A DNA stretch of 64,000 nt. Source: a virus. Shown here piece by piece: positions 1,421 to 62,697 of the stretch. Position numbers and translations under genes: made by a program. The DNA lies in the IMG/VR virus record IMGVR_UViG_3300045988_130745; one strand, written 5' to 3'. Below the pieces are notes generated by a model. It searched no databases. It was not told the DNA's origin and was given only the letters and a program-made list of their open reading frames with translations. How positions within the stretch are numbered: the stretch's first letter is position 1; the number at the start of each line of letters is the position of its first letter.

Positions 1421-1626
1421 AGGGGTCTGGCTCCTCAACTAAAGAAATGCCAGGGTAGTGATGACTAAGGTTAAGAGCGCTAGATGCCCGGCTACTACCT
1501 AAAATAACAGACAGGGGAATGAGGTCGCTACGGTATCCTTTACTAATACGGTTGTGTACAGACTGTGGGTATAAAAAACAATGCCGCTAGATTGTTGATT
1601 GCTAAGTGGGGTCCTTAGCATTATAA

Positions 1627-1872: not shown

Positions 1873-1957
1873 AGGGTAGCATTGATTAGCTGTCAATGAG
1901 AATAAGGTGCTCCTACACCGGCCTTTTATATTTTTATTTATCATAGGAGTGATAAAT

Positions 1958-3557: not shown

Positions 3558-3633
3558 TGACCTTTCAGATAATGGTTAGTCTAGGTGGCTCTAACCCACC
3601 ATGTCTCGGTTCGATTCCAGAGAAGGTCAGCCA
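3558..3633 (+). tRNA. amber-suppressor tRNA (anticodon CUA) with tRNA-Gln-like identity features
   Basis: Anticodon stem ggtgg/ccacc with loop CTCTAAC. Acceptor tgacctt/aaggtca gives U1-A72 and G73, as in bacterial tRNA-Gln. T loop TTCGATT, with a bulged A in the T stem. CCA encoded. Confidence 0.8.
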
Positions 3634-3637
3634 TAGC

Positions 3638-3690
3638 GAGACAGTCGCAGCAATTTATTTTGTATGGCATTTACAGAAAAAGCTGTCTTG
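3638..3690 (+). ncRNA. stem-CAGCAA element E0
   Basis: Terminal helix gagacag/ctgtctt with CAGCAA just inside the 5' strand and a 3' G. Member of a 10-copy family. Confidence 0.5.
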
Positions 3691-8879: not shown

Positions 8880-9596
8880 ATGTATTTTCTTGGAGATGTT
8901 CATGCAGAATCTCCTTTAATGGAAGGTTTTCTTGAATCAAAAGAGAAATATTGCCTTCAATTAGGTGATTTCGGCTTTATTTTCAAGTATAATGATTGGA
9001 AATGGAATAAGTTTCTTAATCATTTCGCGCGAGATTATCCAGAAAAAATGATTTTCACTATTTTAGGTAATCACGAGAATTATGATTCTATTGAGAAAAT
9101 GCCAATTAAGACAATATTTGGTGCGCGGTGTAGAGAAATTCGTTCAAATGTGTACGCAGTAGAGCGTGGAGAAATCCTTTCTATTGAAGGACTGAATATT
9201 CTTTGTATTGGTGGCGCGGATTCTATTGATAAAGTATATCGAGAGCCTAAAGAATCTTGGTGGCATCAAGAAGCAATTACCAGTCAAGATGTTATTAAAA
9301 CCGTAGACAAAGGTTTAACTCATTCTTTTGATATGATTTGTTCTCATACAATGCCTGCATTTTTTATGGATAAAAAATTTGCAACGCTTTTTAACACAGG
9401 TTCAGAGTTTTCTCTTGAAAAAATTTATTGCGATATTGAAAACAATGATAAACATATTCCTTTGTGGCTTGGCGGCCACGTTCATGCTTCAATAAGTTTA
9501 TCTTATAATGATACTTTATTTCGTACTCTTAATATTGGAGAAGGAATTGAATATCGTCAAGGAGACTCAATTAAAGATAAATTTCTAATCCAATAA
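8880..9596 (+). CDS. calcineurin-like metallophosphoesterase
   Basis: GDVH, GDFG, GNHE and GGHVH motifs in canonical order. No TAG. Confidence 0.75.
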   Translation: MYFLGDVHAESPLMEGFLESKEKYCLQLGDFGFIFKYNDWKWNKFLNHFARDYPEKMIFTILGNHENYDSIEKMPIKTIFGARCREIRSNVYAVERGEILSIEGLNILCIGGADSIDKVYREPKESWWHQEAITSQDVIKTVDKGLTHSFDMICSHTMPAFFMDKKFATLFNTGSEFSLEKIYCDIENNDKHIPLWLGGHVHASISLSYNDTLFRTLNIGEGIEYRQGDSIKDKFLIQ

Positions 9597-9885: not shown

Positions 9886-9914
9886 TTGACTTTCTATGAA
9901 TGTTATGATATAAT
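9886..9914 (+). promoter_or_regulatory. family promoter
   Basis: TTGACT 9886-9891 and TATAAT 9909-9914. Drives E1 and tRNA-Leu. Confidence 0.75.
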
Positions 9915-9930
9915 ATTTATAGAAACTTGA

Positions 9931-9989
9931 GAGACGATTACAGCAAGATTTAAACATAATGCTGTGAACTTATGGAAAAAATCGTCTCG
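9931..9989 (+). ncRNA. stem-CAGCAA element E1
   Basis: Helix gagacgatt/aatcgtctc, CAGCAA after the 5' strand, inner hairpin acagca/tgctgt, 3' G then TTTT. Confidence 0.5.
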
Positions 9990-10082: not shown

Positions 10083-10216
10083 GTGGTTAGAACCAAACCA
10101 TTGACCAAAAGGTTCTCGAACGCCTTATCGTTACATGTGTGCTGACTTGGGCAGGTTCAAGATGAATCTGCGGCCTGGCACAGGCAGAAAAGAGCGTGGT
10201 TGCTCAGTGCTTATAT

Positions 10217-10295
10217 GGGGGATGGAATTGCTAGGAGTGATTGCCTGTTTTGCAAACAGGATAGCAGATGGGTTCGAATCCCATATCCTCCACCA
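10217..10295 (+). tRNA. tRNA-Ala (UGC)
   Basis: Anticodon stem cctgt/acagg with loop TTTGCAA. G3-U70 pair in acceptor gggggat/atcctcc. T loop TTCGAAT, CCA encoded. D arm is unusually long. Confidence 0.65.
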
Positions 10296-10374
10296 TTAAA
10301 TCTTTCCGAAACGGCGAGGGTCGTAGCGAATTATCTAAACGTAGCCAACGTTTTCTGGCGGCACAGGAAAGATT

Positions 10375-10455
10375 AAGACACATTTCAGCAAATTTTAATT
10401 ACCTTGCCATGTTTAAGGTATCCGACATTGCCGGATTTTATTATTTAGTGTCTTG
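10375..10455 (+). ncRNA. stem-CAGCAA element E2, in the 5' leader of the DUF2828/vWA gene
   Basis: Helix aagacac/gtgtctt and TTTCAGCAAA. Ends 27 nt before the ATG at 10482. Confidence 0.5.
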
Positions 10456-10481
10456 AGTTCCTCAAGAGAAAGGAAGAATAT

Positions 10482-11972
10482 ATGAATAAGTTTGTAAATG
10501 CTATTTCCAATGAGGCTTCTCTTAATGGTTCTGCGAAGTTGACCGAGAATGGTGCAATTGCTCGCTCTACCACTGGGGATTGTCTGCTTGATTTTTATGC
10601 GGTTTCTGGTGCGTTGCGTACTCGCAGTGAAGCTGATATTTTGAGTCTCTTTAAGAAGGCTTGGAATGAGAATCCTCTGTATGCGCTGAAGACTGTGTTT
10701 ATGACTCGTGATATTCGCGGTGGACGTGGAGAGCGTCGTACTGCTCGTATCATTCTGAAGTATCTGGCAGATGTCGCGCCGCAGACTGTTATCAAGAACT
10801 TTGATAATATCATGGAGATGGGTCGTGCTGATGACTTTTATGAGTTCGTTGGCACTTCTGTCGAATCTGCTATGTGGCAGTATTTGCGTAATCAGATTGT
10901 TGAAGACTTGAAGAATATGCGTGCGGAGAAGCCTATTTCTTTGACCGCAAAGTGGCTGAAGTCTATTAACACTTCTTCTAAGGAGTCTCGTGCGCTTGGT
11001 CGTAAGACTGCTCGTGCGCTTGGCCTGACCGAACGTGAATATCGTAAGACTCTTTCTCGGCTGCGTAATTACCTCAAGGTTGTTGAGGTAAAGATGTCTG
11101 CTGGCGAGTGGACCGATATTGATTATGCTGCGGTGCCTGCTGTAGCGATGAATCGTTATCGTAAGGCTTTTAAGCGTCATAATCCTTCTGCTTTCGATAC
11201 TTATATCGAAAAGGTCGAAAAGGGTGAAGAGAAGATTAATGCTTCTACTTTGTATCCTTATGACCTGGTAGAAAAGATTATGCAGAACAATAGCTACTGG
11301 TCTACTGATGTTAAGGAAGACCCCGTTATTGAAGCTCAGTGGAAGGCTTTGCCCAACTACATTGAGGGTGAGAATAACGTGCTGGTTATGGCTGACGTAA
11401 GTGGTTCTATGTATGGTCGTCCTATGGCTACTTCTGTTGGCTTGGCAATTTATTTTGCCGAGCGCAATAAGGGTGCTTTTAAGAACACTTACATGACCTT
11501 TACTAACTGTCCTCATTATATCCAGATTCAGCCTGGTCAGACTCTGGCGGAAAAGGTTGAAGCCGTGATGCGTACTGATGTCGGTTATAGCACTAATTTG
11601 GAGCGTGCATTTATGCAGGTTCTGGATACTGCCGTGATGAATCGTGTACCTCAGAAGGATATGCCTAAGGCAATGGTGGTTATTTCCGACATGGAAATTG
11701 ATCGCTACTTCCGTGGACAGGGACTTGATTTCGTGTCTGAGATGGTCCGTCGTTTCCGCGCGGCTGGCTATCAGATGCCTCGTCTGGTTCTTTGGAACGT
11801 ACAGGCTCGTTCCAACACTTTCCACGCCAACTCTACTAATCCTTATGTTACTTTTGCGAGTGGGCAGGGTGTTGCGGAGTTTAAGAATGTGTTGGCCGGC
11901 ATTTCTCTTGACGCTTATGCAGCAATGATGAAGGCTTTGGATGACGAGCGTTATGCTTCTGTTGTCCTGTAA
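10482..11972 (+). CDS. DUF2828-like protein with C-terminal vWA domain (TROVE/Ro60-like architecture)
   Basis: 496 aa. N-terminal helical region contains NPLYALKTVFMTRDIRGGRGERR. C-terminal MADVSGSM fits a DxSxS MIDAS motif. No TAG. Clearly higher GC than its neighbours. Confidence 0.7.
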   Translation: MNKFVNAISNEASLNGSAKLTENGAIARSTTGDCLLDFYAVSGALRTRSEADILSLFKKAWNENPLYALKTVFMTRDIRGGRGERRTARIILKYLADVAPQTVIKNFDNIMEMGRADDFYEFVGTSVESAMWQYLRNQIVEDLKNMRAEKPISLTAKWLKSINTSSKESRALGRKTARALGLTEREYRKTLSRLRNYLKVVEVKMSAGEWTDIDYAAVPAVAMNRYRKAFKRHNPSAFDTYIEKVEKGEEKINASTLYPYDLVEKIMQNNSYWSTDVKEDPVIEAQWKALPNYIEGENNVLVMADVSGSMYGRPMATSVGLAIYFAERNKGAFKNTYMTFTNCPHYIQIQPGQTLAEKVEAVMRTDVGYSTNLERAFMQVLDTAVMNRVPQKDMPKAMVVISDMEIDRYFRGQGLDFVSEMVRRFRAAGYQMPRLVLWNVQARSNTFHANSTNPYVTFASGQGVAEFKNVLAGISLDAYAAMMKALDDERYASVVL

Positions 11973-12065
11973 ATGAACGATTAAAAGGTGTTCTAAAATT
12001 TTCTTGCTTTGCAAGTTGGGTAAATAAGAAGTTAGGACCAAGTGATGGGAGTTCAAGCCTTTTAA

Positions 12066-12094
12066 TTGACTTTTTATGATTTCTATGATATAAT
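12066..12094 (+). promoter_or_regulatory. family promoter
   Basis: TTGACT 12066-12071 and TATAAT 12089-12094. Confidence 0.75.
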
Positions 12095-12111
12095 ATTTAT
12101 AGAAATCAATT

Positions 12112-12296
12112 AGATGGATTCAGCAATTAAAGTTTTTTAGATATAAATTATTATTTTAATTGTACAGATTTAGCTATTTTCTCGGTGAAATTTGGACATT
12201 TCATTTAGAGGTTGCTGTCAAGATGTTCTTATAGCTAAATCACCGCGCGGTACTTTTAACTTTTAACTTTTAACTTTTAACTTTTAATCCATCTAG
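12112..12296 (+). ncRNA. stem-CAGCAA element E3 (long variant)
   Basis: Helix agatggatt/aatccatct, which covaries relative to other copies. CAGCAA follows the 5' strand. Contains a 7-mer tandem repeat. Confidence 0.45.
12253..12287 (+). repeat. tandem repeat (CTTTTAA) x5
   Basis: Five perfect head-to-tail 7-nt units, read directly. Confidence 0.9.
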
Positions 12297-12305
12297 TTTT
12301 TATAT

Positions 12306-12381
12306 GACTTCGTAGCTCAGATGGTAGAGCAGTGGCCTGAAGAGCCGCGCGTCGAGGTCTCGAAAGCCTCCGAAGTCACCA
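12306..12381 (+). tRNA. tRNA-Phe (GAA)
   Basis: Acceptor gacttcg/cgaagtc, canonical D arm agctcagatggtagagc, anticodon loop CTGAAGA, CCA encoded. T loop CTCGAAA is atypical. Confidence 0.8.
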
Positions 12382-12390
12382 TTTATTATT

Positions 12391-12528
12391 AAGACGATTT
12401 CAGCAAATAATTTTTAAATATAATTAATAGCGTAGGGCTAGCAGTTATTGGTTCGAATCCAATCGACCCCACTTGAGGGGTTGTAGCTTAATTGGCAAAG
12501 CGGCTAATAAATTATTGATGTCGTCTTG
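12391..12528 (+). ncRNA. stem-CAGCAA element E4 enclosing a circularly permuted tRNA-like module
   Basis: Order: helix 5' strand aagacga, CAGCAA, small hairpin, T arm attgg-TTCGAAT-ccaat, acceptor 3' strand cgacccc, 6-nt loop, acceptor 5' strand ggggttg, D arm gctt-aattggca-aagc, helix 3' strand tcgtctt. There is no anticodon loop. Confidence 0.5.
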
Positions 12529-12534
12529 TTTTAT

Positions 12535-12625
12535 ACTCCCTTATCTCAACGGTAGAGAAGCGGACTTATAACCCGTATTAGCACCAGATTAGTGCATGAT
12601 GTCCGTTCGAATCGGACAGGGAGTA
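12535..12625 (+). tRNA. type-II-like tRNA with UAU anticodon (identity ambiguous)
   Basis: Acceptor actccct/agggagt, anticodon loop CTTATAA, 24-nt variable arm with a gcac/gtgc stem, T arm gtccg-TTCGAAT-cggac. No encoded CCA. Confidence 0.55.
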
Positions 12626-12632
12626 TTTATAT

Positions 12633-12708: not shown

Positions 12709-12793
12709 TTAGGGAAGCGCTGAGTAGCTACAGCGAGACTAAGGTGCCTTCACACCGGCCTTATATTTTATTTATTCTGAAGGAGAATAAATT

Positions 12794-13588
12794 ATGTATA
12801 ATCCTATTTGTGGTATTTATAAAATTACTAATTTGATTAATGGACATTGCTATATTGGGCAAAGTAGGAATATTAAGAAACGATGGGAAGAGCATCGAAC
12901 TAGAGCTTTTAATATTAAAGATGATGGATATAATTATCCTCTTTATAAAAGTTTTAGAAAATATGGTCTTTAGAACTTTTCTTTTGAAATAATTGAGCAA
13001 TGCTCAGAAAAGTAGTTAAACGAAAAAGAAAATTATTGGATTTAGTTTTATTAGGCAAATTATAATTAGACTATTGGACAAGATTATTAGGTAGTTCCTA
13101 AAAAATTAACAATAGAGGAAGTACAAGAAATACAAAATTACTTAATTGAAAGTTCAAATGATTCTTTAGATATTTCATTAAAATAGTTGGCAGAAAATTA
13201 TCATGTTTCTTAGCTTACTATTCGAGATATTAATGTAGGACGTTCTTGGGCTAATAGTAAATTAAAATATCCTTTGTACCAATCTAAATATAATCCGAAT
13301 AATAAAATAACTAATAACTATTGTCCTATTTGCGGATAGAAAATTTCTTAGAAAGCTAAATTTTGTCCTCAGTATTATTCAACTATAAATATCAGTCCTC
13401 GAAAAAGTAAAATTAATATCACAAGAGAAGAATTAAAAAGACGAATTAGAATAGAATCTTTTTCTTAGATAAGCAAAGATTTTAATGTTAGTGATAATGG
13501 TATAAGAAAGAAATGCCAAAAGCTAAATCTTCCTTATCGTAAGAAAGATATAGATACTTATTCTGATGAAGAATGGGCAAAACTTTAA
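12794..13588 (+). CDS. GIY-YIG homing-endonuclease-like protein (copy b)
   Basis: MYNPICGIYKITNLINGHCYIGQS... 265 codons are open only with TAG as sense (many TAG). C-terminus resembles copies a, c and d. Conserved leader upstream. Confidence 0.85.
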
Positions 13589-13611
13589 GAGGTTTTACCT
13601 CTTTTATATTG

Positions 13612-13688
13612 CGGGATGTAGCAGTAGTTCGCTAACGGGTCTCATAAGCCCGTGTAGGCCGTGAGCATAACCGGCTCCCGCATCCAAT
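13612..13688 (+). tRNA. tRNA with CAU anticodon (Met, fMet or Ile2)
   Basis: Acceptor tgcggga/tcccgca, D stem tagc/gcta, anticodon loop CTCATAA, CCA encoded. T arm is non-canonical. Confidence 0.6.
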
Positions 13689-13833
13689 AAAACCTTCGTT
13701 AAAACAACTCTCTAAACCTTTGGGTCTACGGTAGTGCTTTGACGGAAGCCTAGGTTAAGCGTAATGAGTTGACGAGACCTAGTTAATTACAGATAAGCCA
13801 GCGGGTTTCTGCGAAGGTCACCCGCAATCATAC

Positions 13834-13909: not shown

Positions 13910-13913
13910 AGAG

Positions 13914-14000
13914 ACACATTTAAAACAGCAATTATTTTTGGTTAAAATACTAATCTGATAAATTGGTTAAGCAGTTCAAATCTGTAAGTTGTGTCTTGTT
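13914..14000 (+). ncRNA. stem-CAGCAA element E5 (contains one T-arm-like hairpin)
   Basis: Helix agacaca/tgtgtct, CAGCAA, internal gcag-TTCAAAT-ctgt hairpin, 3' TG then TTTT. Confidence 0.45.
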
Positions 14001-14173: not shown

Positions 14174-14241
14174 AGTCATATAATTGAAACGGAAATGGGC
14201 ATAAGTCGGAAATGGTTGATATTTTATGACTTTTTAATAAA

Positions 14242-14358
14242 GACGATTGCAGCAATAATTCTTAACAAGAATTTATCATCGGTTCAACTCCGATATTACC
14301 CGCCATTAAACAGAGTAATTAGCTCAATTGGTAGAGCGCTTCTTTTAATCGTCTTGAA
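14242..14358 (+). ncRNA. stem-CAGCAA element E6 enclosing a circularly permuted tRNA-like module
   Basis: Perfect 9-bp helix aagacgatt/aatcgtctt and GCAGCAA. Then hairpin aattctt-aac-aagaatt, T arm atcgg-TTCAACT-ccgat, acceptor 3' strand attaccc followed by GCCA, loop, acceptor 5' strand gagtaat, and D arm agctcaattggtagagc. Confidence 0.5.
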
Positions 14359-14398
14359 ATTGAATAATTCTAGTCAGACAATAACAGCTACCCAACGT

Positions 14399-14467
14399 CA
14401 GGATAGTGTAGAGGTTAGCACGCTGTGAAAGACCAGTATCCTGGGTTCGAATCCCAGTCCTGAGGAA
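14399..14467 (+). tRNA. tRNA-like gene with truncated or aberrant anticodon arm (possible pseudo-tRNA)
   Basis: Good D arm (gtgt-agaggtta-gcac), T arm (ctggg-TTCGAAT-cccag) and acceptor. The anticodon arm is 3-4 nt too short, with a loop near TGAAAGAC. No CCA. Confidence 0.4.
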
Positions 14468-14498
14468 ACGTACATTGTCTAGTTGAAAGGTATCTTAA

Positions 14499-14781: not shown

Positions 14782-17058
14782 ATGAATAAAGTTATTAAAA
14801 GAAATGGCTAGGAAGTTGATTTTAAGATTGAAAAAATTGAAAGAGCTATTTCTGCGGCAAATAATGAAGTCGAAGGTGCAGACAAAATAAGTGTAATTGG
14901 GTTACGCTCTATTGTTGATGAAGTTGAAAGACAATGTGAGAGAGCTACTCATGCGCTTAATGTAGAAGATATTCAGAATATTGTTGAAGAAACTATTATG
15001 GAAGAGGGATATTTTGAAGTCGCACGACATTATATTAAATATCGTTATCTCCATGAAATGATTCGTGACCAATATCAAGTTTTAATGAATGAAGTGTCTA
15101 AGAAACTTGACGCGACTGACATTCAAAATCAAAATGCAAACGTTGACGAAGCATCTTTCGGTGGGCGCCAAGGTGAGGCATCAAATTATTTAACTAGTCA
15201 ATATGCTCTTGATTATTGTATGTCAAAAATGGCAAGAGAAAATCATTTGAATAATGAAATTTATACTCATGATCTTTCTTCTTATGCTGTTGGTTGCCAT
15301 AATTGTTTGACAATTCCTTTTGATGATTTACTTGCAAAAGGTTTTAATACTCGTCAAACAGATGTTCGTCCCGCGCAATCGGTTAGTACTGCTTTTCAAT
15401 TAGTTGCAGTTATTTTTCAAATTCAATCATTGCAACAATTCGGTGGAGTTAGTGCAAGTCATCTTGATTGGACAATGGTTCCTTATGTAAGAAAGAGCTT
15501 CCGTAAGCATTATCGAGACGGTAGAAAATATATCTATTTTGATAATGAAGGGGATAGAGTCAGAGGAATTGCTGATGAAGCGGTCTTGGCTAAAGATGAT
15601 TTTAGTATTACCGATCCTATTTTTGAAAAATATTATCCAAAAGCATATAAATATGCAATGGATATGACTGAACGCGAAGTCCATCAAGCTGTTGAGGGAA
15701 TGTATCATAATCTTAATACTCTTCAGTCTCGCTCTGGCAATCAATTACCGTTTACTTCAATTAATTACGGGACTTGCACTTTACCCGAAGGACGCATGAT
15801 TACTAAAGCTTTGCTTGAAGTTTCTATTGACGGTATTGGAGAATTGCATAGAACTTCTATTTTCCCTTGTGGTATTTTTCAAGTAATGAAAGGTGTTAAT
15901 AAAGAGCCTGGTACTCCTAACTATGATTTGTATAGATTGGCTTTAAAGTCAACAGCTCAGAGACTTTATCCTAATTATGCCAATGTTGATTGGAGTGGTA
16001 ATGCTGGTTATGATAGGAATGATCCTCGTACTTACTTTTCAACCATGGGCTGTAGAACTGCAAATGGCTGGGACATTAATGGTTTTGGTCAATTAAAAGA
16101 TGGACGCGGAAATATTTGCCCAGTAACAATTATTCTTCCTACACTTGCAATGGAAGCAAAAGAGTATATTCTCAAACACTCTACTGGTGAAGATCTCGAA
16201 GGACAAACAGTTGATAAATTTTTGTCTGTTCTCGATCAAAAATTGTATGAAGCAAAAGATCAATTAATTGAGCGTTTTGAATGGATTTGTAAGCAAAGTC
16301 CAGAAGCCGCGAAATTCATGTATGAGAACAATGTTATGGCTGGATATAATCCAGAAGAAGGAATCCGCTCTGCTTTGAAACATGGTACTTTAGCTATTGG
16401 TTTATTAGGCATGGCAGAAACACTCCAAATTCTTATTGGATGCAATCAACTTGAACCAGAAGGTATGGAACTAGCTAAACGAATTTGCCAGTTGTATAAA
16501 ATTCGTTGTGCAGAATTTAAAGAGCAATATAAATTAAATTTTGGTGTTTACTACACTCCCGCTGAAAATTTATGTTATACTGCGATGAAGAAGTTCCAAA
16601 AAAAATACGGTAAGATTCCTAATATTTCTGATAGAGATTTCTTTACTAATTCTATTCATGTTCCTGTTTGGGAAGAAATAGATATTTTCAAAAAGATTGA
16701 CATTGAATCTCAATTAACTGGATATTCTAGCGCGGGTTGCATCACTTATATTGAACTTGACTCAGGCGCAAAACATAACATTGATGCTCTTGAAACAATA
16801 GTTAATTATGCAATGGACCATGATATTCCTTATTTTGCAATCAATGTTCCTAATGATATGTGTATGGATTGCGGCTATACTGATGAAATTGGTAACGATT
16901 GTCCTCAATGTCATGGCGAAAATATTCGTCGTTTGCGCAGAGTGACAGGATATTTAACTGGTGATTATAAAACTGCTTTTAATCCTGGCAAGCAAGCCGA
17001 AGCAGAAGCAAGATTTAAGCATAGTAAAATTACCAAATTTGGGAAAGGGAATAATTAA
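14782..17058 (+). CDS. nrdD: anaerobic ribonucleoside-triphosphate reductase with N-terminal ATP-cone
   Basis: MNKVIKRNG[TAG]EVDF is an ATP-cone start. C-terminal CMDCGY..CPQCHG zinc ribbon and RRVTGYL glycyl-radical motif. In frame with track ORF 14998-17058. Confidence 0.9.
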
Positions 17059-44305: not shown

Positions 44306-44334
44306 TTGACTTTAGAACGATTTTATGCTATAAT
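44306..44334 (+). promoter_or_regulatory. family promoter
   Basis: TTGACT 44306-44311 and TATAAT 44329-44334. Confidence 0.75.
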
Positions 44335-44367: not shown

Positions 44368-44898
44368 ATGACTAAGTTTATTCCTGCTGTTCCTCGTTTG
44401 ACCGCTAAGCGTGACGGCGACATCGCTTATCACAAGCCGAGTTTTTCGTATTACATTGACCGAGATAAAACTGGATGTATCAATGGTCAGCTGTATCATG
44501 GCGTCGTAGTCGCTAAGCTGAGTGGCGGTGTTCGCGATCTGGTAAATATTTGGACTAAGCGTGACGCTTTTAGGATTTGTGAGCTAGGGGAGATTGCCTC
44601 TCTACTCCATGTTAATTCCGACCTTGGTCCTGCTTATTGCGTGTTTGAGGGCAAGGCTTACTGTTCGGTTGATGATAAGTGGGACGAGAACGAGGGTATG
44701 AAGATTGCTCGTCGCAAGGCTTGGACTCAGTATTACCATGCTCTGGCAAATTATACCTATGATTATCAGAAGCGTGTCGCTGCGCTGTATGAGCAGATTA
44801 CCAAGTATGCTGATTTTGCGGTAAAGCGCAGTTGCGAGCTAGATATGGAGAATACTGAAGTCCAGAAGATGCTTGAAGGAATGTCGGAAACTGTTTAA
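44368..44898 (+). CDS. hypothetical protein (GC-richer, TAG-free)
   Basis: 176-aa ORF with the same CGT/GCT-rich codon style as 10482-11972. Confidence 0.6.
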   Translation: MTKFIPAVPRLTAKRDGDIAYHKPSFSYYIDRDKTGCINGQLYHGVVVAKLSGGVRDLVNIWTKRDAFRICELGEIASLLHVNSDLGPAYCVFEGKAYCSVDDKWDENEGMKIARRKAWTQYYHALANYTYDYQKRVAALYEQITKYADFAVKRSCELDMENTEVQKMLEGMSETV

Positions 44899-47658: not shown

Positions 47659-47725
47659 AAGACAGAAGCAGCAAAATACTTACAATCAGAACTTAAAATT
47701 CTAATATTGGTAAGAAGCTGTCTTG
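47659..47725 (+). ncRNA. stem-CAGCAA element E7a
   Basis: Helix aagacag/ctgtctt, AAGCAGCAAA, 3' G. Confidence 0.5.
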
Positions 47726-47747
47726 ATATGGGATGAAATGAGATTCT

Positions 47748-47817
47748 AAGACGATTTCTGCAAAACTTTTGATGTTTTAACAATATGGATGATAAAACAA
47801 AATGAAAAATCGTCTTG
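47748..47817 (+). ncRNA. stem-CAGCAA element E7b (CTGCAA variant)
   Basis: Perfect helix aagacgatt/aatcgtctt, TCTGCAAA, 3' G. Confidence 0.45.
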
Positions 47818-49816: not shown

Positions 49817-50351
49817 TTAATCAAAGTTTTTAATTAGGTTTAACCCTTTCGAAGGATTATAGCTGAAGTGGAGCAATGCCTGAGCTAGACACGCATTGTA
49901 TGGTACACTGAAACACCAAATAAACCGCGGTATAATAGGTGTTATAATGCCGAACACTTAATTAAAGTAAAAGAACGCCAATCTTTGATTAAATTGGGCT
50001 GGAGTTTATCTCCTTGGTCCACTAATCCAGTGGAATTTCTACTGGCGGCTTTACGACAGACCCGTAAGAAATCTGTCCCTCTGAATAGATACTCGCATAG
50101 CAGCAAACTCTTTCTAGTTGGAAGAATAAAAGTAAGTATTACTTGATAATGCTTTGATCGCTCGCCCATTCAAACTGGGAGTATCTAGTAATAAAAGAGG
50201 TCTGGGATGAATGTGCGAGTAAAATTTTTAATAGCTGGGTTTAGAATGACCGCTATTGAAAATAGGTTTTCATTACCTAAGTGTGAACCTTTGCAGGGCA
50301 GGTATCCTTTGCAAGTATGAATCCTTGTGGGGTGGGTATCCCCTGCTTTAT
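49817..50351 (+). ncRNA. about 535-nt ORF-poor segment between two tRNAs (candidate large structured RNA)
   Basis: No credible + strand ORF even with TAG as sense. Many local inverted repeats. Flanked directly by tRNA genes. Confidence 0.3.
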
Positions 50352-62215: not shown

Positions 62216-62338
62216 AAGACCATCACAGCATCTGAAATTGGCTTGTAACCCGCTTGTCGTCGAGTTCGATTCTCGACAGTATCTTCTCTTAAATGGGAAC
62301 ACTTAGCTCAGTGGTAGAGCAGCGTATTGTTGGTCTTG
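62216..62338 (+). ncRNA. stem-CAGCA element E8 enclosing a circularly permuted tRNA-like module
   Basis: Helix aagacca/tggtctt and CACAGCA. T arm gtcgag-TTCGATT-ctcgac, imperfect acceptor tcttctc / loop ttaaat / gggaaca, canonical D arm tagctcagtggtagagca. Confidence 0.45.
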
Positions 62339-62620: not shown

Positions 62621-62697
62621 ACGGTTGTAGCTTAATAGGATAAAGCTGCGTGATTCCTAATCCGTCTATACCAGTTCAAATCTGGTCAGCCGTTCCA
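62621..62697 (+). tRNA. tRNA, probably Arg (CCU), with a bulge in the anticodon stem
   Basis: Acceptor acggttg/cagccgt, loop TTCCTAA if one stem nucleotide is bulged, T loop TTCAAAT, CCA encoded. Close relative of the Arg(UCU) gene. Confidence 0.55.

What the first reader, a model, noticed from the sequence alone, without database searches (positions are those of the whole stretch)
10375..11972. DUF2828-like helical plus vWA (MIDAS) protein with a family RNA element in its 5' leader
- The 496-aa protein combines an all-helical N-terminal region (RDIRGGRGERR signature) with a C-terminal vWA fold whose DVSGS motif fits a MIDAS site. Ro60/Rsr uses the same two-part plan.
- Its mRNA leader is one of the stem-CAGCAA elements, ending 27 nt before the ATG. 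That suggests autoregulation or co-assembly.
- The gene sits inside a tRNA array and is compositionally unlike its neighbours.
Basis: inference. Interest (0 to 1): 0.7.

Follow-up and report, generated by a model that had tools for sequence, protein, structure and literature searches.

The report
Phage Ro60-like protein with Y-RNA partners
A gut phage encodes a ring-shaped RNA-binding protein of the Ro60 type together with at least twelve small RNAs that share one docking-like stem motif; one copy sits in the protein's own mRNA leader, and the same protein-RNA pairing recurs in many tRNA-rich phages where these RNAs have not been described.

Summary
ORF 10482-11972 (496 aa) is a DUF2828+DUF7788 protein. 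Its AlphaFold model (pLDDT 93.7) matches Ro60/TROVE structures over its full length, and its MIDAS residues are invariant.

The leader element is real and ends 27 nt before the ATG. It is one of 12 same-strand copies of a frame: 5'-(A)AGAC-helix, 0-7 nt, CAGCAA ... helix-GUCUU-G-3'. Shuffles give 0.37 copies and the minus strand has none.

Three copies (E5, E7, E12) enclose a permuted tRNA-like module, the architecture of bacterial YrlA Y RNAs. A covariance model built only from other phages finds them at E = 4e-13 to 5e-6.

A frame copy lies in the leader in 12 of 12 relatives. Helix-CAGCAA RNAs also flank DUF2828 genes in Felix O1, Listeria, Bacillus, Staphylococcus, Enterococcus, Mycobacterium and Synechococcus phages. 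An RNA-only pattern search of IMG/VR recovers a DUF2828 gene in 70 of 120 loci, always on the same strand.

Best reading: a divergent Ro60/Y-RNA-type ribonucleoprotein system tied to phage tRNA arrays. The leader copy is either a co-transcribed Y-like RNA or an autoregulatory operator. Binding itself is inferred, not shown. I class it as a new variant of a known kind.

The parts
10482..11972 (+). Gene for a 496-aa DUF2828+DUF7788 protein: an N-terminal alpha-helical repeat region (about residues 1-290) plus a C-terminal vWA domain with MIDAS residues D305, S307, S309, T371 and D403. The fold is Ro60-like.
   Evidence: (PHROG 850 'RNA-binding protein', 3e-131).
10373..10456 (+). E3, the frame element in the mRNA leader. 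P1 pairs (UU)AAGACAC with GUGUCUU(GA). CAGCAA is at 10386-10391. Two internal hairpins lie at 10400-10419 and about 10420-10436.
   Evidence: An orthologous element lies upstream of the gene in 12/12 relatives, with TGTCTTG invariant. R1 gives a full-length hit at 20.6 bits.
10452..10466 (+). P2 hairpin CUUGAG-UUC-CUCAAG. It shares CUU with the 3' arm of P1 and contains a UUCCUC stretch complementary to the Shine-Dalgarno region (10470-10476).
   Evidence: The hairpin is kept with different sequences in L001, L016, L003, L002, L013, L014 and L015. Its role as a switch is inferred.
3637..3690 (+). E1, a short frame RNA. It follows the suppressor tRNA(CUA) and precedes a terminator.
9931..9988 (+). 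E2, a short frame RNA. It begins about 10 nt after the start site of promoter 9886-9914 and heads the transcript that carries tRNA-Leu, tRNA-Ala, E3 and the gene.
   Evidence: (z = -4.2).
12109..12297 (+). E4, a long frame RNA (UAGAUGGAUU/AAUCCAUCUA). It lies directly after promoter 12066-12094 and contains (ACTTTTA)n repeats.
   Evidence: (z = -4.3).
12390..12528 (+). E5, a YrlA-like RNA: the frame helix and CAGCAA enclose a T arm, the acceptor 3' strand, a loop, the acceptor 5' strand and a D arm.
   Evidence: Rfam YrlA 32.8 bits over the full model. R1 83 bits, E 3.5e-13. Covariation.
13911..13997 (+). E6, a frame RNA with a weak tRNA-like core.
   Evidence: (tRNA 25.8 bits).
14240..14355 (+). 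E7, a YrlA-like RNA whose acceptor loop contains G-CCA.
   Evidence: Rfam YrlA 25.3 bits. R1 80.2 bits, E 1.2e-12. The orthologue L003:2889-3010 has compensatory changes in the acceptor stem.
14376..14480 (+). E10, a frame (AGACAAU/AUUGUCU, CAGCUA) that encloses a non-permuted tRNA-like sequence at 14397-14465.
47659..47724 (+). E8, a short frame RNA in a second tRNA array.
   Evidence: 23 bits.
47747..47817 (+). E9, a short frame RNA with the CUGCAA variant.
50087..50186 (+). E11, a frame RNA (AGAUACUC/GAGUAUCU).
62217..62336 (+). E12, a YrlA-like RNA (CAGCAU variant) between tRNA-Lys and tRNA-Arg.
   Evidence: R1 43.9 bits, E 4.9e-6.
9886..9914 (+). Promoter TTGACT-17-TATAAT. It is the nearest upstream consensus promoter for the gene.

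Best explanation
**What it is.**
- The gene encodes a divergent Ro60-type protein: a helical-repeat ring plus a vWA/MIDAS domain, from the DUF2828/DUF7788 family.
- The phage also encodes a set of at least 12 small Y-RNA-like RNAs, transcribed within its tRNA arrays or directly after strong promoters.
- Each RNA is closed by a helix formed from its 5' and 3' ends. The helix has a conserved base (AAGAC/GUCUU-G), and an invariant CAGCA(A) sits on the 5' side of the adjoining internal loop.

**How it most likely works (inferred).**
- This frame is the docking site for the Ro-like protein.
- The variable interior is the effector module: a simple hairpin, a permuted tRNA mimic as in YrlA, or a whole tRNA-like fold.
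- By analogy with Rsr/YrlA/PNPase and the rsr-yrlBA-rtcBA operon, the particles act on tRNA-like substrates. That could be quality control, processing or repair of the phage's tRNAs, or neutralising host factors that attack them.
- The frame copy in the gene's own leader lets the protein bind its mRNA. Full P1 formation competes with hairpin P2 for CUU, which would free a UUCCUC anti-SD stretch and dampen translation.

**Shown versus inferred.**
- Shown: the fold, the structure and covariation of the RNA family, and the genomic linkage in both directions.
- Inferred: the binding, the target and the autoregulation.
For: **Protein.**
- Pfam DUF2828 at 2e-47 and DUF7788 at 7e-31.
- The model has pLDDT 93.7 and pTM 0.92.
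- The top 8 PDB matches are all Ro60/TROVE at full length.
- The MIDAS residues are invariant.

**RNA family in the window.**
- 12 frames on the + strand, 0 on the - strand, 0.37 expected.
- The flank pair that the scan did not select for is AU:30, UA:8, GC:2, GU:2 and unpaired in 4.

**YrlA-like class.**
- Sub-threshold, full-length Rfam YrlA hits occur in the window and in the Enterococcus and Mycobacterium phages. The hit in L002 covers only model positions 23-88 of 114.
- RNAalifold on 15 sequences from five or more lineages gives the frame helix, T arm, acceptor stem and D arm. 21 of 24 pairs show compensatory changes, and CAGCA is invariant.
- Model R1, built without any window sequence, finds E5, E7 and E12 at E = 3.5e-13, 1.2e-12 and 4.9e-6. 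It also finds eight of the other nine frames at full length (E11 is not among its hits), all on the + strand.

**Linkage to the protein.**
- A leader element is present in 12/12 relatives down to 56% protein identity.
- Helix-CAGCAA RNAs lie next to the gene in 7/7 distant lineages.
- An RNA-only pattern in IMG/VR gives at least 120 loci. 70 of them carry a DUF2828 homologue within a median of about 9 kb, and 73/73 instances are on the same strand. Only 709 of 50,697 phage records carry the family at all.
- A T5-like phage with about 30 tRNAs and no DUF2828 hit in the first 100 kb of its 114-kb genome has no helix-CAGCAA frame among the tRNA genes of its array.

**Gene context.** RtcB lies near the gene in the Listeria phage. 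Band-7 lies near it in the mycobacteriophage and L002. Rnl1, a kinase-like gene and PTH2 lie near it in L001.

**Precedent.** Thermus phage phiLo Ro60 binds two Yrl RNAs encoded upstream of its gene (PMC12135203). Bas63 gp130, of a Felixounavirus, is Ro60-like, sits upstream of tRNA genes and counters the Ppl defence (bioRxiv 10.1101/2024.10.10.617714).
Against: - No binding data exist for any DUF2828 protein with these RNAs.
- The Pfam TROVE model is not matched by any of 78 family members at E <= 1. A sequence profile of the family hits only vWA chains in the PDB.
- TM-scores to Ro60 are moderate (0.5-0.6, rmsd 8-10 A).
- The frame lacks the CGAA motif reported for canonical Y RNAs.
- All YrlA hits are well below Rfam's gathering score (25-45 bits against 69).
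- Bas63 gp130 rescued T7 from Ppl without any phage RNA, so at least one activity of the family may not need the RNAs.
- 50 of the 120 pattern loci show no DUF2828 gene within the stretch fetched.
- The P1/P2/anti-SD switch rests on inspection of a handful of leaders. In the window itself the MFE fold leaves the SD free.
Confidence: 0.66

Rival explanations
1. The leader element E3 is not a regulatory operator. It is simply one more Y-like RNA gene that happens to lie upstream of the protein gene, is co-transcribed with it and is then cut out, so that protein and RNA are made together. This is co-assembly rather than autoregulation.
For: - Yrl1 and Yrl2 lie upstream of the Ro60 gene in Thermus phage phiLo (PMC12135203).
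- In Listeria, Enterococcus and Bacillus phages, one to three frame RNAs lie in series upstream of the gene.
- E3 has the same frame as the free-standing copies.
Against: - The 3' arm is followed at once by a covarying hairpin and the SD in every close relative. The spacing to the AUG is narrow, 27-49 nt.
- The leader copies are the smallest and most sequence-constrained members (TGTCTTG is invariant), which suggests a constraint tied to the mRNA.
Confidence: 0.3
2. The frames are processing signals for polycistronic tRNA transcripts. They would be sites for a host RNase or another phage nuclease, and have nothing to do with the DUF2828 protein.
For: - Frames abut tRNA genes with spacers of 2-10 nt and also sit at transcript 5' ends.
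- Some enclose whole tRNA-like sequences (E10; L002 12522-12640).
Against: - The same motif is conserved in phages of Proteobacteria, Firmicutes, Actinobacteria and Cyanobacteria, whose RNase sets differ. That points to a phage-encoded partner.
- The frames are absent among the tRNA genes of the T5-like phage array.
- The frames track DUF2828 in the reverse search.
- A frame is present in the protein's own leader, where there is no tRNA to release.
Confidence: 0.1
3. The tRNA-like frame RNAs are circularly permuted tRNA genes. They would be matured into working tRNAs by end-joining and by RNase P and Z cuts in the acceptor loop, and the Ro-like protein would act as a chaperone for this.
For: - The acceptor 3' strand is followed by N-CCA inside the loop in E7 and in many relatives.
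- RNA ligases (Rnl1, RtcB) are encoded near the gene in related phages.
Against: - No anticodon arm exists in E5, E7 or E12. The frame helix and CAGCAA occupy that place.
- Most frame RNAs have no tRNA-like module at all.
- No RNA ligase was found among the 14 window ORFs scanned.
Confidence: 0.04
4. The protein is an ordinary vWA/MIDAS protein, for example a chelatase-like or adhesin-like one, and the Ro60 resemblance is superficial.
For: There are weak Pfam VWA_2 and CoxE hits. PDB sequence searches hit only vWA chains.
Against: - Full-length structural matches to eight Ro60/TROVE entries rank ahead of every vWA-only match.
- YrlA-like RNAs lie next to the gene in many lineages.
Confidence: 0.03

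Closest known systems
Ro60/Rsr with Y RNAs, especially bacterial Rsr-YrlA (Rfam RF02553; Chen et al. 2014, PMC4201824) and Thermus phage phiLo Ro60 with Yrl1/Yrl2 (PMC12135203; PDB 9KOP, 9L5Y)
   Same: - Two-part protein plan: a helical-repeat ring plus vWA/MIDAS.
- The partner RNAs are closed by a 5'/3' terminal helix with a conserved internal loop.
- Some RNAs carry a permuted tRNA-like module (T arm, acceptor stem, D arm).
- The RNAs are encoded next to the protein gene on the same strand.
- Neighbours include RtcB, band-7 and RNA-ligase genes.
   Different: - The protein belongs to Pfam DUF2828/DUF7788, not TROVE, with no TROVE HMM hit at E <= 1.
- The conserved RNA motif is helix plus CAGCAA, not the CGAA-containing bulged helix.
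- The RNAs score 25-45 bits against YrlA's gathering score of 69, and lack the two extra helices of the YrlA consensus.
- There are 12 or more RNA copies per genome, spread through the tRNA arrays.
- A copy sits in the protein's own leader, directly against the SD region.
Bas63 gp130, a Felixounavirus Ro60-like protein that counters the Ppl defence (bioRxiv 10.1101/2024.10.10.617714), and the SEA-PHAGES annotation 'Ro-like RNA binding protein' in cluster L mycobacteriophages
   Same: - Probably the same protein family. Felix O1 ORF86 is 35% identical to the window protein and sits directly upstream of the tRNA array. The mycobacteriophage protein is 36% identical.
- The authors guessed that some neighbouring 'tRNAs' might be Y RNAs.
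   Different: - No partner RNAs were identified there. Here four helix-CAGCAA RNAs are located between the Felix O1 tRNA genes and three after the mycobacteriophage gene.
- That gp130 is the Felix O1 ORF86 orthologue is my inference; I did not retrieve the Bas63 record.
Autoregulatory mRNA operators that mimic a protein's primary RNA ligand, such as ribosomal-protein leaders and T4 RegA or gp32 (from general knowledge)
   Same: A copy of the ligand motif sits in the 5' leader close to the SD of the protein's own gene.
   Different: Nothing has been tested. The leader copy could be a processed RNA product instead.

Membership tests
DUF2828/DUF7788 (PF11443 + PF25043; PHROG 850) | Matches both Pfam models above their gathering scores | tested here: met
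   162.3 bits against a cutoff of 29, and 107.7 bits against 27.1. PHROG 850 at 3e-131.
Ro60/TROVE | Sequence match to the Pfam TROVE model (PF05731) | tested here: not met
   No TROVE hit at E <= 1 for the query or for any of the 78 family members. A PDB sequence profile search finds only vWA chains.
Ro60/TROVE | Helical-repeat ring followed by a vWA domain (overall fold) | tested here: met
   The top 8 Foldseek PDB hits are Ro60/TROVE entries aligned over 517-563 columns, with E 1e-9 to 1e-7, TM 0.48-0.60 and probability 1.0. The model has pLDDT 93.7. Ring closure itself was not inspected.
Ro60/TROVE | MIDAS motif in the vWA domain | tested here: met
   D305, S307, S309, T371 and D403 are invariant in 78 sequences.
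Ro60/TROVE | Binds Y RNA on the outer surface and misfolded RNA 3' ends in the central hole | not testable with these tools
   Needs biochemistry or a structure of the complex.
YrlA (Rfam RF02553) | Score at or above the gathering threshold (69 bits) | tested here: not met
   E5 32.8 bits and E7 25.3 bits. Relatives score 34-45 bits.
YrlA (Rfam RF02553) | Terminal 5'/3' helix enclosing a T arm, acceptor-like stem and D arm in permuted order | tested here: met
   RNAalifold on 15 sequences gives 21/24 pairs with compensatory changes. The Rfam matches in the window and in the Enterococcus and Mycobacterium phages span the full model, positions 1-114.
YrlA (Rfam RF02553) | Encoded within about 4 kb of a Ro60 orthologue on the same strand (criterion of Chen et al. 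2014) | tested here: inconclusive
   Met with respect to the DUF2828 gene: E5 lies 0.4 kb and E7 2.3 kb downstream on the same strand. But the neighbour is not a TROVE-annotated Ro60.
Canonical Y RNA | Conserved Ro-binding helix with a CGAA-type motif | tested here: not met
   The frames have AGAC...CAGCAA. CGAA appears only in one mycobacteriophage copy (UGGUCA-CGAA-CAGCAA).
Autoregulatory leader operator | The protein binds its own leader and lowers translation | not testable with these tools
   Only the anatomy is available: the frame lies 27 nt from the AUG, and P2 and an anti-SD stretch are present.

The most novel reading that the evidence does not exclude
The helix-CAGCAA frame is a universal handle. 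It lets one Ro-like ring carry a panel of different tRNA mimics and hairpins, so that tRNA-rich phages can guard, repair or decoy their tRNA pool against host tRNA-targeting defences.
- The protein would limit its own synthesis through a copy of the handle in its mRNA.
- The gene would be recoded to avoid A-ending codons (AAA, CAA, AGA and TTA are all absent). That would keep it translatable when the tRNAs that read those codons (anticodons starting with U) are missing or cleaved.
- This would define a pan-phage ribonucleoprotein class parallel to Ro60/Y RNA. It is present in Felix O1-like, P100/A511-like, Tsamsa-like, cluster L and many uncultured phages.
Probability: 0.15. Interest if true: 0.85.

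Novelty: new variant of a known kind. Interest (0 to 1): 0.66.

Why it matters
- **Scope.** Ro60/Y-RNA particles are known from animals, some bacteria and a few phages. Their bacterial and phage roles are still poorly understood.
- **Distribution.** The DUF2828 family is present in 709 of 50,697 deposited phage genomes. These include the model phage Felix O1 and relatives of the Listeria phages P100 and A511. It also occurs in giant viruses.
- **Annotation.** It is usually labelled 'hypothetical', 'vWFA' or loosely 'RNA-binding'.
- **What is new.** This work gives the family concrete candidate RNA partners with a simple, mutable signature: a closing helix plus CAGCAA.
- **Open question made testable.** One family member already has a counter-defence phenotype (Bas63 gp130 against Ppl). 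The RNAs allow a direct test of whether that activity, or tRNA protection, is RNA-guided.
- **Annotation consequences.** The RNAs explain many unannotated gaps and 'pseudo-tRNAs' in phage tRNA arrays, and supply a new RNA family for Rfam-type annotation.

Tried and rejected
- **Motif alone.** CAGCAA and TTCAGCAA are not enriched on their own. Only the combination with the closing helix is significant.
- **Sequence routes to Ro60.** phmmer and a family profile against PDB sequences and Pfam TROVE gave nothing. Only the fold comparison shows the relation.
- **Rfam at gathering thresholds.** It finds only tRNAs in the window. YrlA appears only with E-value thresholds.
- **Terminator-like hairpin inside E3** (10420-10436 plus a U-tract). 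I considered it as an attenuator but it is not kept outside the closest relatives, so I dropped it.
- **'Host-adapted codons' as the reason for the odd composition.** This could not be tested. The nearest cultured relatives by NrdD are Thomasclavelia ramosa phages (70.7% identity). From memory that host is AT-rich, which would not favour the idea. The anomaly stays unexplained.
- **Bas63 record.** My guessed accession returned Bas27, a T5-like phage. I used it as the negative control instead.
- **Supplement of Chen et al. 2014.** The phage list is not held, so I could not check which 22 phages they covered.
- **Model R1.** The RNAalifold consensus used for it lost the closing helix because MAFFT misaligned the 3' ends. 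Its scores therefore rest on sequence plus the T and acceptor stems.
Full report
**1. What is at the coordinates**

ORF 10482-11972 (+, 496 aa) is the only long ORF there apart from an antisense shadow ORF. It matches Pfam DUF2828 (2.2e-47) and DUF7788 (6.9e-31), with weak VWA_2 and CoxE hits. It also matches PHROG 850 'RNA-binding protein' at 3e-131.

The window is a phage-like genome piece.
- It has 28 or more tRNA genes, including a CUA suppressor tRNA.
- It carries repeated TTGACT-N17-TATAAT promoters.

The gene lies between tRNA-Ala (10217-10295) and tRNA-Phe (12306-12381). The nearest upstream consensus promoter is at 9886-9914. The gene therefore appears to be co-transcribed with E2, tRNA-Leu, tRNA-Ala and E3.

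**2. The protein**

The family is large.
- About 8,000 candidates were scored in the 90% clusters.
- There are 6,311 representatives at E <= 0.001 in the 50% clusters.
- 709 phage records carry a homologue: Felix O1-like phages of E. coli and Salmonella, and phages of Listeria, Bacillus, Staphylococcus, Enterococcus, Campylobacter, Vibrio, Aeromonas, Mycobacterium and Synechococcus.
- Annotators call it 'hypothetical', 'vWFA protein', 'DUF2828', 'RNA-binding protein' or, for mycobacteriophages, 'Ro-like RNA binding protein'.

In a 78-sequence alignment the MIDAS residues D305, S307, S309, T371 and D403 are invariant. The RDIRGGxGER motif is nearly so.

The structural evidence places it with Ro60.
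- An AlphaFold2 model from this alignment has mean pLDDT 93.7 and pTM 0.92.
- The eight best Foldseek matches in the PDB are all Ro60/TROVE structures aligned over the whole chain: 9KOP and 9L5Y (Thermus phage phiLo), 2I91, 1YVP and 1YVR (Xenopus), and 9NF8 and 9NEP (human). They have E 1e-9 to 1.4e-7 and TM 0.48-0.60.
- Isolated vWA domains follow only after these.
- Against predicted viral structures the model matches DUF2828/DUF7788 proteins of phages and giant viruses (TM up to 0.89). At lower scores it matches TROVE and 'Ro-like' phage proteins.

At sequence level there is no TROVE signal.
- No Pfam TROVE hit was found for any of 78 members at E <= 1.
- No Ro60 was found by phmmer or by a profile against PDB sequences.

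The protein therefore has the Ro60 architecture but belongs to a separate sequence family.

**3. The RNA element and its family**

- AAGACAC (10375-10381) pairs with GTGTCTT (10448-10454).
- CAGCAA follows the 5' arm after 4 nt.
- The element ends 27 nt before the ATG.

The same frame recurs on the + strand at 3637, 9931, 12109, 12390, 13911, 14240, 14376, 47659, 47747, 50087 and 62217.
- A strict scan gives 12 copies on the + strand and none on the - strand. 200 dinucleotide shuffles give a mean of 0.37 and a maximum of 3.
- The upper part of the helix differs from copy to copy while staying paired: GACAG/CUGUC, GACGAUU/AAUCGUC, GAUGGAUU/AAUCCAUC and others.
- Across 46 distinct frames from the window and relatives, the base pair just outside the scanned helix was not selected for by the scan. 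It is AU in 30, UA in 8, GC in 2, GU in 2 and unpaired in 4.

**4. Some copies are YrlA-like tRNA mimics**

Between the arms of E5, E7 and E12 lie, in order:
- a T arm (GGTTCGAATCC type);
- the 3' strand of an acceptor-like stem, often followed by N-CCA;
- a loop;
- the 5' strand of that stem;
- a D arm.

This is the permuted order that defines bacterial YrlA.

Three lines of evidence support the assignment.
- Rfam's YrlA model aligns end to end with E5 (32.8 bits) and E7 (25.3 bits), below its gathering score of 69.
- An alignment of 15 such RNAs comes from the window, four related metagenomic phages, and the Enterococcus, Mycobacterium, Felix O1 and Bacillus Tsamsa phages. RNAalifold folds it into the frame helix, T arm, acceptor stem and D arm. 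21 of 24 pairs show compensatory changes, and C-A-G-C-A is invariant.
- A covariance model built only from non-window sequences finds E5 (83 bits, E 3.5e-13), E7 (80 bits, 1.2e-12) and E12 (44 bits, 4.9e-6). It also finds eight of the other nine frames as weaker full-length matches (E11 is not among its hits), all on the + strand.

Other copies carry different cargo.
- A whole tRNA-like sequence: E10, and L002 12522-12640.
- A tRNA core whose acceptor stem is replaced by the frame: L003 4221-4310.
- Only a small hairpin: E1, E2, E8 and E9.

**5. Linkage to the protein**

(a) In 12 of 12 relatives, from 98% down to 56% protein identity, a frame lies directly upstream of the DUF2828 gene. TGTCTTG is invariant in these leaders.

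(b) In all seven distant, cultured phage lineages I opened, helix-(2-4 nt)-CAGCAA RNAs lie beside the gene on its strand.

| Phage | Copies | Position relative to the gene |
|---|---|---|
| Felix O1 | 4 | between the first tRNAs downstream |
| Mycobacterium phage AvadaKedavra | 3 | directly downstream |
| Listeria phage LMTA-148 | 3 | directly upstream |
| Bacillus phage Tsamsa | 5 | upstream, in or after the tRNA array |
| Synechococcus phage B23 | 2 | one upstream, one downstream |
| Staphylococcus phage S-CoN_Ph1 | 3 | directly downstream |
| Enterococcus phage phiSHEF13 | 3 | upstream |

Sub-threshold YrlA hits coincide with two of them: Enterococcus at 44.9 bits and Mycobacterium at 39.8 bits.

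(c) The reverse test used an RNA-only pattern, AAGACAC-N2-4-CAGCAA-N25-55-GTGTCTTG.
My estimate of the chance expectation is a few.
- 70 of the 120 loci contain a DUF2828 homologue (35-58% identical to the queries) within the stretch fetched, which has a median of about 9 kb.
- All 73 pattern instances in those loci are on the gene's strand.
- About 24 of them lie within 100 nt upstream of the gene.
- For comparison, 1.4% of phage records carry the family at all.

(d) A negative control is the T5-like phage Bas27, which has about 30 tRNAs.
- tblastn found no DUF2828 homologue in the first 100 kb of its 114-kb genome.
- Its array has no such frame among the tRNA genes on their strand.

The motif is conserved across phages whose hosts have different RNase repertoires. 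Its partner is therefore more likely phage-encoded, and the DUF2828 protein is the only consistent neighbour.

**6. The leader**

In every close relative the 3' arm is followed at once by a hairpin, P2, that begins inside the conserved UCUUG and covaries.
- CUUGAG/CUCAAG in the window.
- CUUGAGGA/UCCUCAAG in L001 and L016.
- CUUGGA/UCCAAG in L003.
- UGRCAGG/CCUGUCA in L002 and L013.
- UGUUAGG/CCUAACA in L014 and L015.

The Shine-Dalgarno sequence and the AUG follow 27-49 nt after the frame.

Two features suggest a switch.
- P2 and the base of P1 compete for CUU.
- P2 hides a pyrimidine stretch (UUCCUC or UUUCUUCCU) that is complementary to the SD. In L002, L013 and L003 the MFE fold pairs it with the SD.

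A protein that fixes P1 could therefore free the anti-SD and reduce translation. This is an inference from anatomy only. The alternative is that E3 is a co-transcribed and processed Y-like RNA, as in phiLo (PMC12135203), and it is equally compatible with the data.

**7. Context and likely role**

- RtcB ligase genes lie 1.3 kb downstream in the Listeria phage.
- Band-7 genes precede the gene in the mycobacteriophage and in L002.
- Rnl1, a KTI12/AAA_33 kinase-like gene, PTH2 and an RlaP-like gene follow it in L001.
- A metallophosphoesterase is a recurrent upstream neighbour: window 8880-9596, and L002, L014 and L015.
- The window also holds a YqeY-like gene and an RlaP-like nucleotidyltransferase.

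These are the neighbours known for Rsr in the rsr-yrlBA-rtcBA RNA-repair operon (PMC7790460, PMC4201824). They are also those that Iyer et al. describe for ROT/TROVE proteins in jumbo phages (PMC7824862).

Together with the consistent placement in or next to tRNA arrays, this points to an RNP that acts on tRNA-like RNAs. One Felixounavirus protein, Bas63 gp130, is Ro60-like and lies directly upstream of the tRNAs. It counters the Ppl defence system and does so even when moved into T7 without phage RNAs (bioRxiv 10.1101/2024.10.10.617714).

**8. Novelty**

Already known:
- Ro60/Y-RNA systems.
- YrlA tRNA mimicry.
- Phage Ro60 with Yrl RNAs.
- The loose 'Ro-like' labelling of this family.

Not found in Rfam 15 or in the held literature:
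- the helix-CAGCAA RNA class;
- its pan-lineage coupling to DUF2828 proteins;
- its multiplicity within tRNA arrays;
- the conserved copy in the protein's own leader.

Chen et al. searched only next to TROVE-annotated genes. I therefore class this as a new variant of a known kind.

**9. Composition**

The gene is a strong codon-usage outlier.
- Third-position A is 7%, against 17-38% in all but one of the other 33 ORFs tabulated.
- AAA, CAA, AGA and TTA are all absent.
- One other ORF shares the bias: 44368-44898, which has its own promoter and no family match.
- The close relatives of the gene share it as well.

I have no tested explanation for this.

Noticed in passing
window 10482-11972 and 44368-44898: Extreme avoidance of A-ending codons. 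In the DUF2828 gene third-position A is 0.07, AAA:AAG is 0:31, CAA:CAG is 0:14, and AGA and TTA are absent. ORF 44368-44898 (176 aa, no family, own promoter at 44306) has A3 of 0.08. All other ORFs of at least 130 aa tabulated have A3 of 0.17-0.38. Close relatives of the gene share the bias (A3 0.08-0.11).
   Followed up: partly
window 3558-3633; ORFs 1959-2630 and 12796-13590: A suppressor tRNA with anticodon CUA is present, and there are in-frame TAG codons inside two GIY-YIG homing-endonuclease-like ORFs. For example, 'YGL-TAG-NFSFEI' aligns with 'YGIENFSFEI' of the paralogue. TAG seems to be read as a sense codon in part of this genome. The DUF2828 gene has no in-frame TAG.
   Followed up: partly
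window 1047, 1275, 3487, 8812, 9597, 9886, 12066, 17802, 44306, 44900: A highly repeated promoter cassette, TTGACTTT-N-TATAAT-ATTTATAGAAA, occurs ten or more times. Several frame RNAs start about 10 nt after it, so they would form the 5' ends of primary transcripts.
   Followed up: partly
window 11981-12059: A structured 3' UTR follows the stop codon. The closing helix UUAAAAGG/CCUUUUAA encloses a T-loop-like GAUGGGAGUUCAAGCC. In L003 (2567-2645) the equivalent has a covarying closing helix (AAAAAUAGG/CCUAUUUUU) and the same inner motif. It is absent in L002.
   Followed up: partly
L020 1969-2520 (Listeria phage LMTA-148): A ROOL RNA match (90 bits, gathering score 99.1, E 7.5e-17) lies among the tRNAs about 1 kb upstream of the DUF2828 gene and its three helix-CAGCAA RNAs.
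   Followed up: no
L024 2880-2932, 3070-3118, 3250-3300 (Enterococcus phage phiSHEF13): Each of the three Y-like RNAs is preceded by the same conserved hairpin unit (GGTTTTG...GTTCC-N-GGAAC-ATAAAGAA). It may be a processing or promoter-associated element.
   Followed up: no
window 1421-1626, 2640-2845, 10083-10216, 13600-13830; L021 2985-3165: GC-rich, apparently structured spacers between tRNA genes match no Rfam family. 13600-13680 looks like a tRNA-Met-like sequence with an aberrant T arm.
   Followed up: no
window 1898-1935 and 12735-12772: A conserved roughly 40-nt element (GAGAATAAGGTGC-YYC-ACACCGGCC) lies just upstream of both GIY-YIG ORFs, each directly after a tRNA gene.
   Followed up: no
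L029 122-714 (IMG/VR giant-virus MAG contig GVMAG-M-3300017963-53): Three tandem exact matches to the frame pattern lie on one strand of a contig labelled as a giant-virus MAG. No DUF2828 hit was found in the stretch fetched.
   Followed up: no
window 12534-12626 and 62621-62697: Two odd tRNA calls: a 93-nt tRNA-Ile(UAU), and a tRNA that ARAGORN reports with an undetermined two-base anticodon.
   Followed up: no
window 14998-17058: The closest cultured relatives of the NrdD protein are Thomasclavelia ramosa phages TR-TP1 and TR-TP2 (70.7% identity). This hints at a Firmicutes (Erysipelotrichales-like) gut host.
   Followed up: partly
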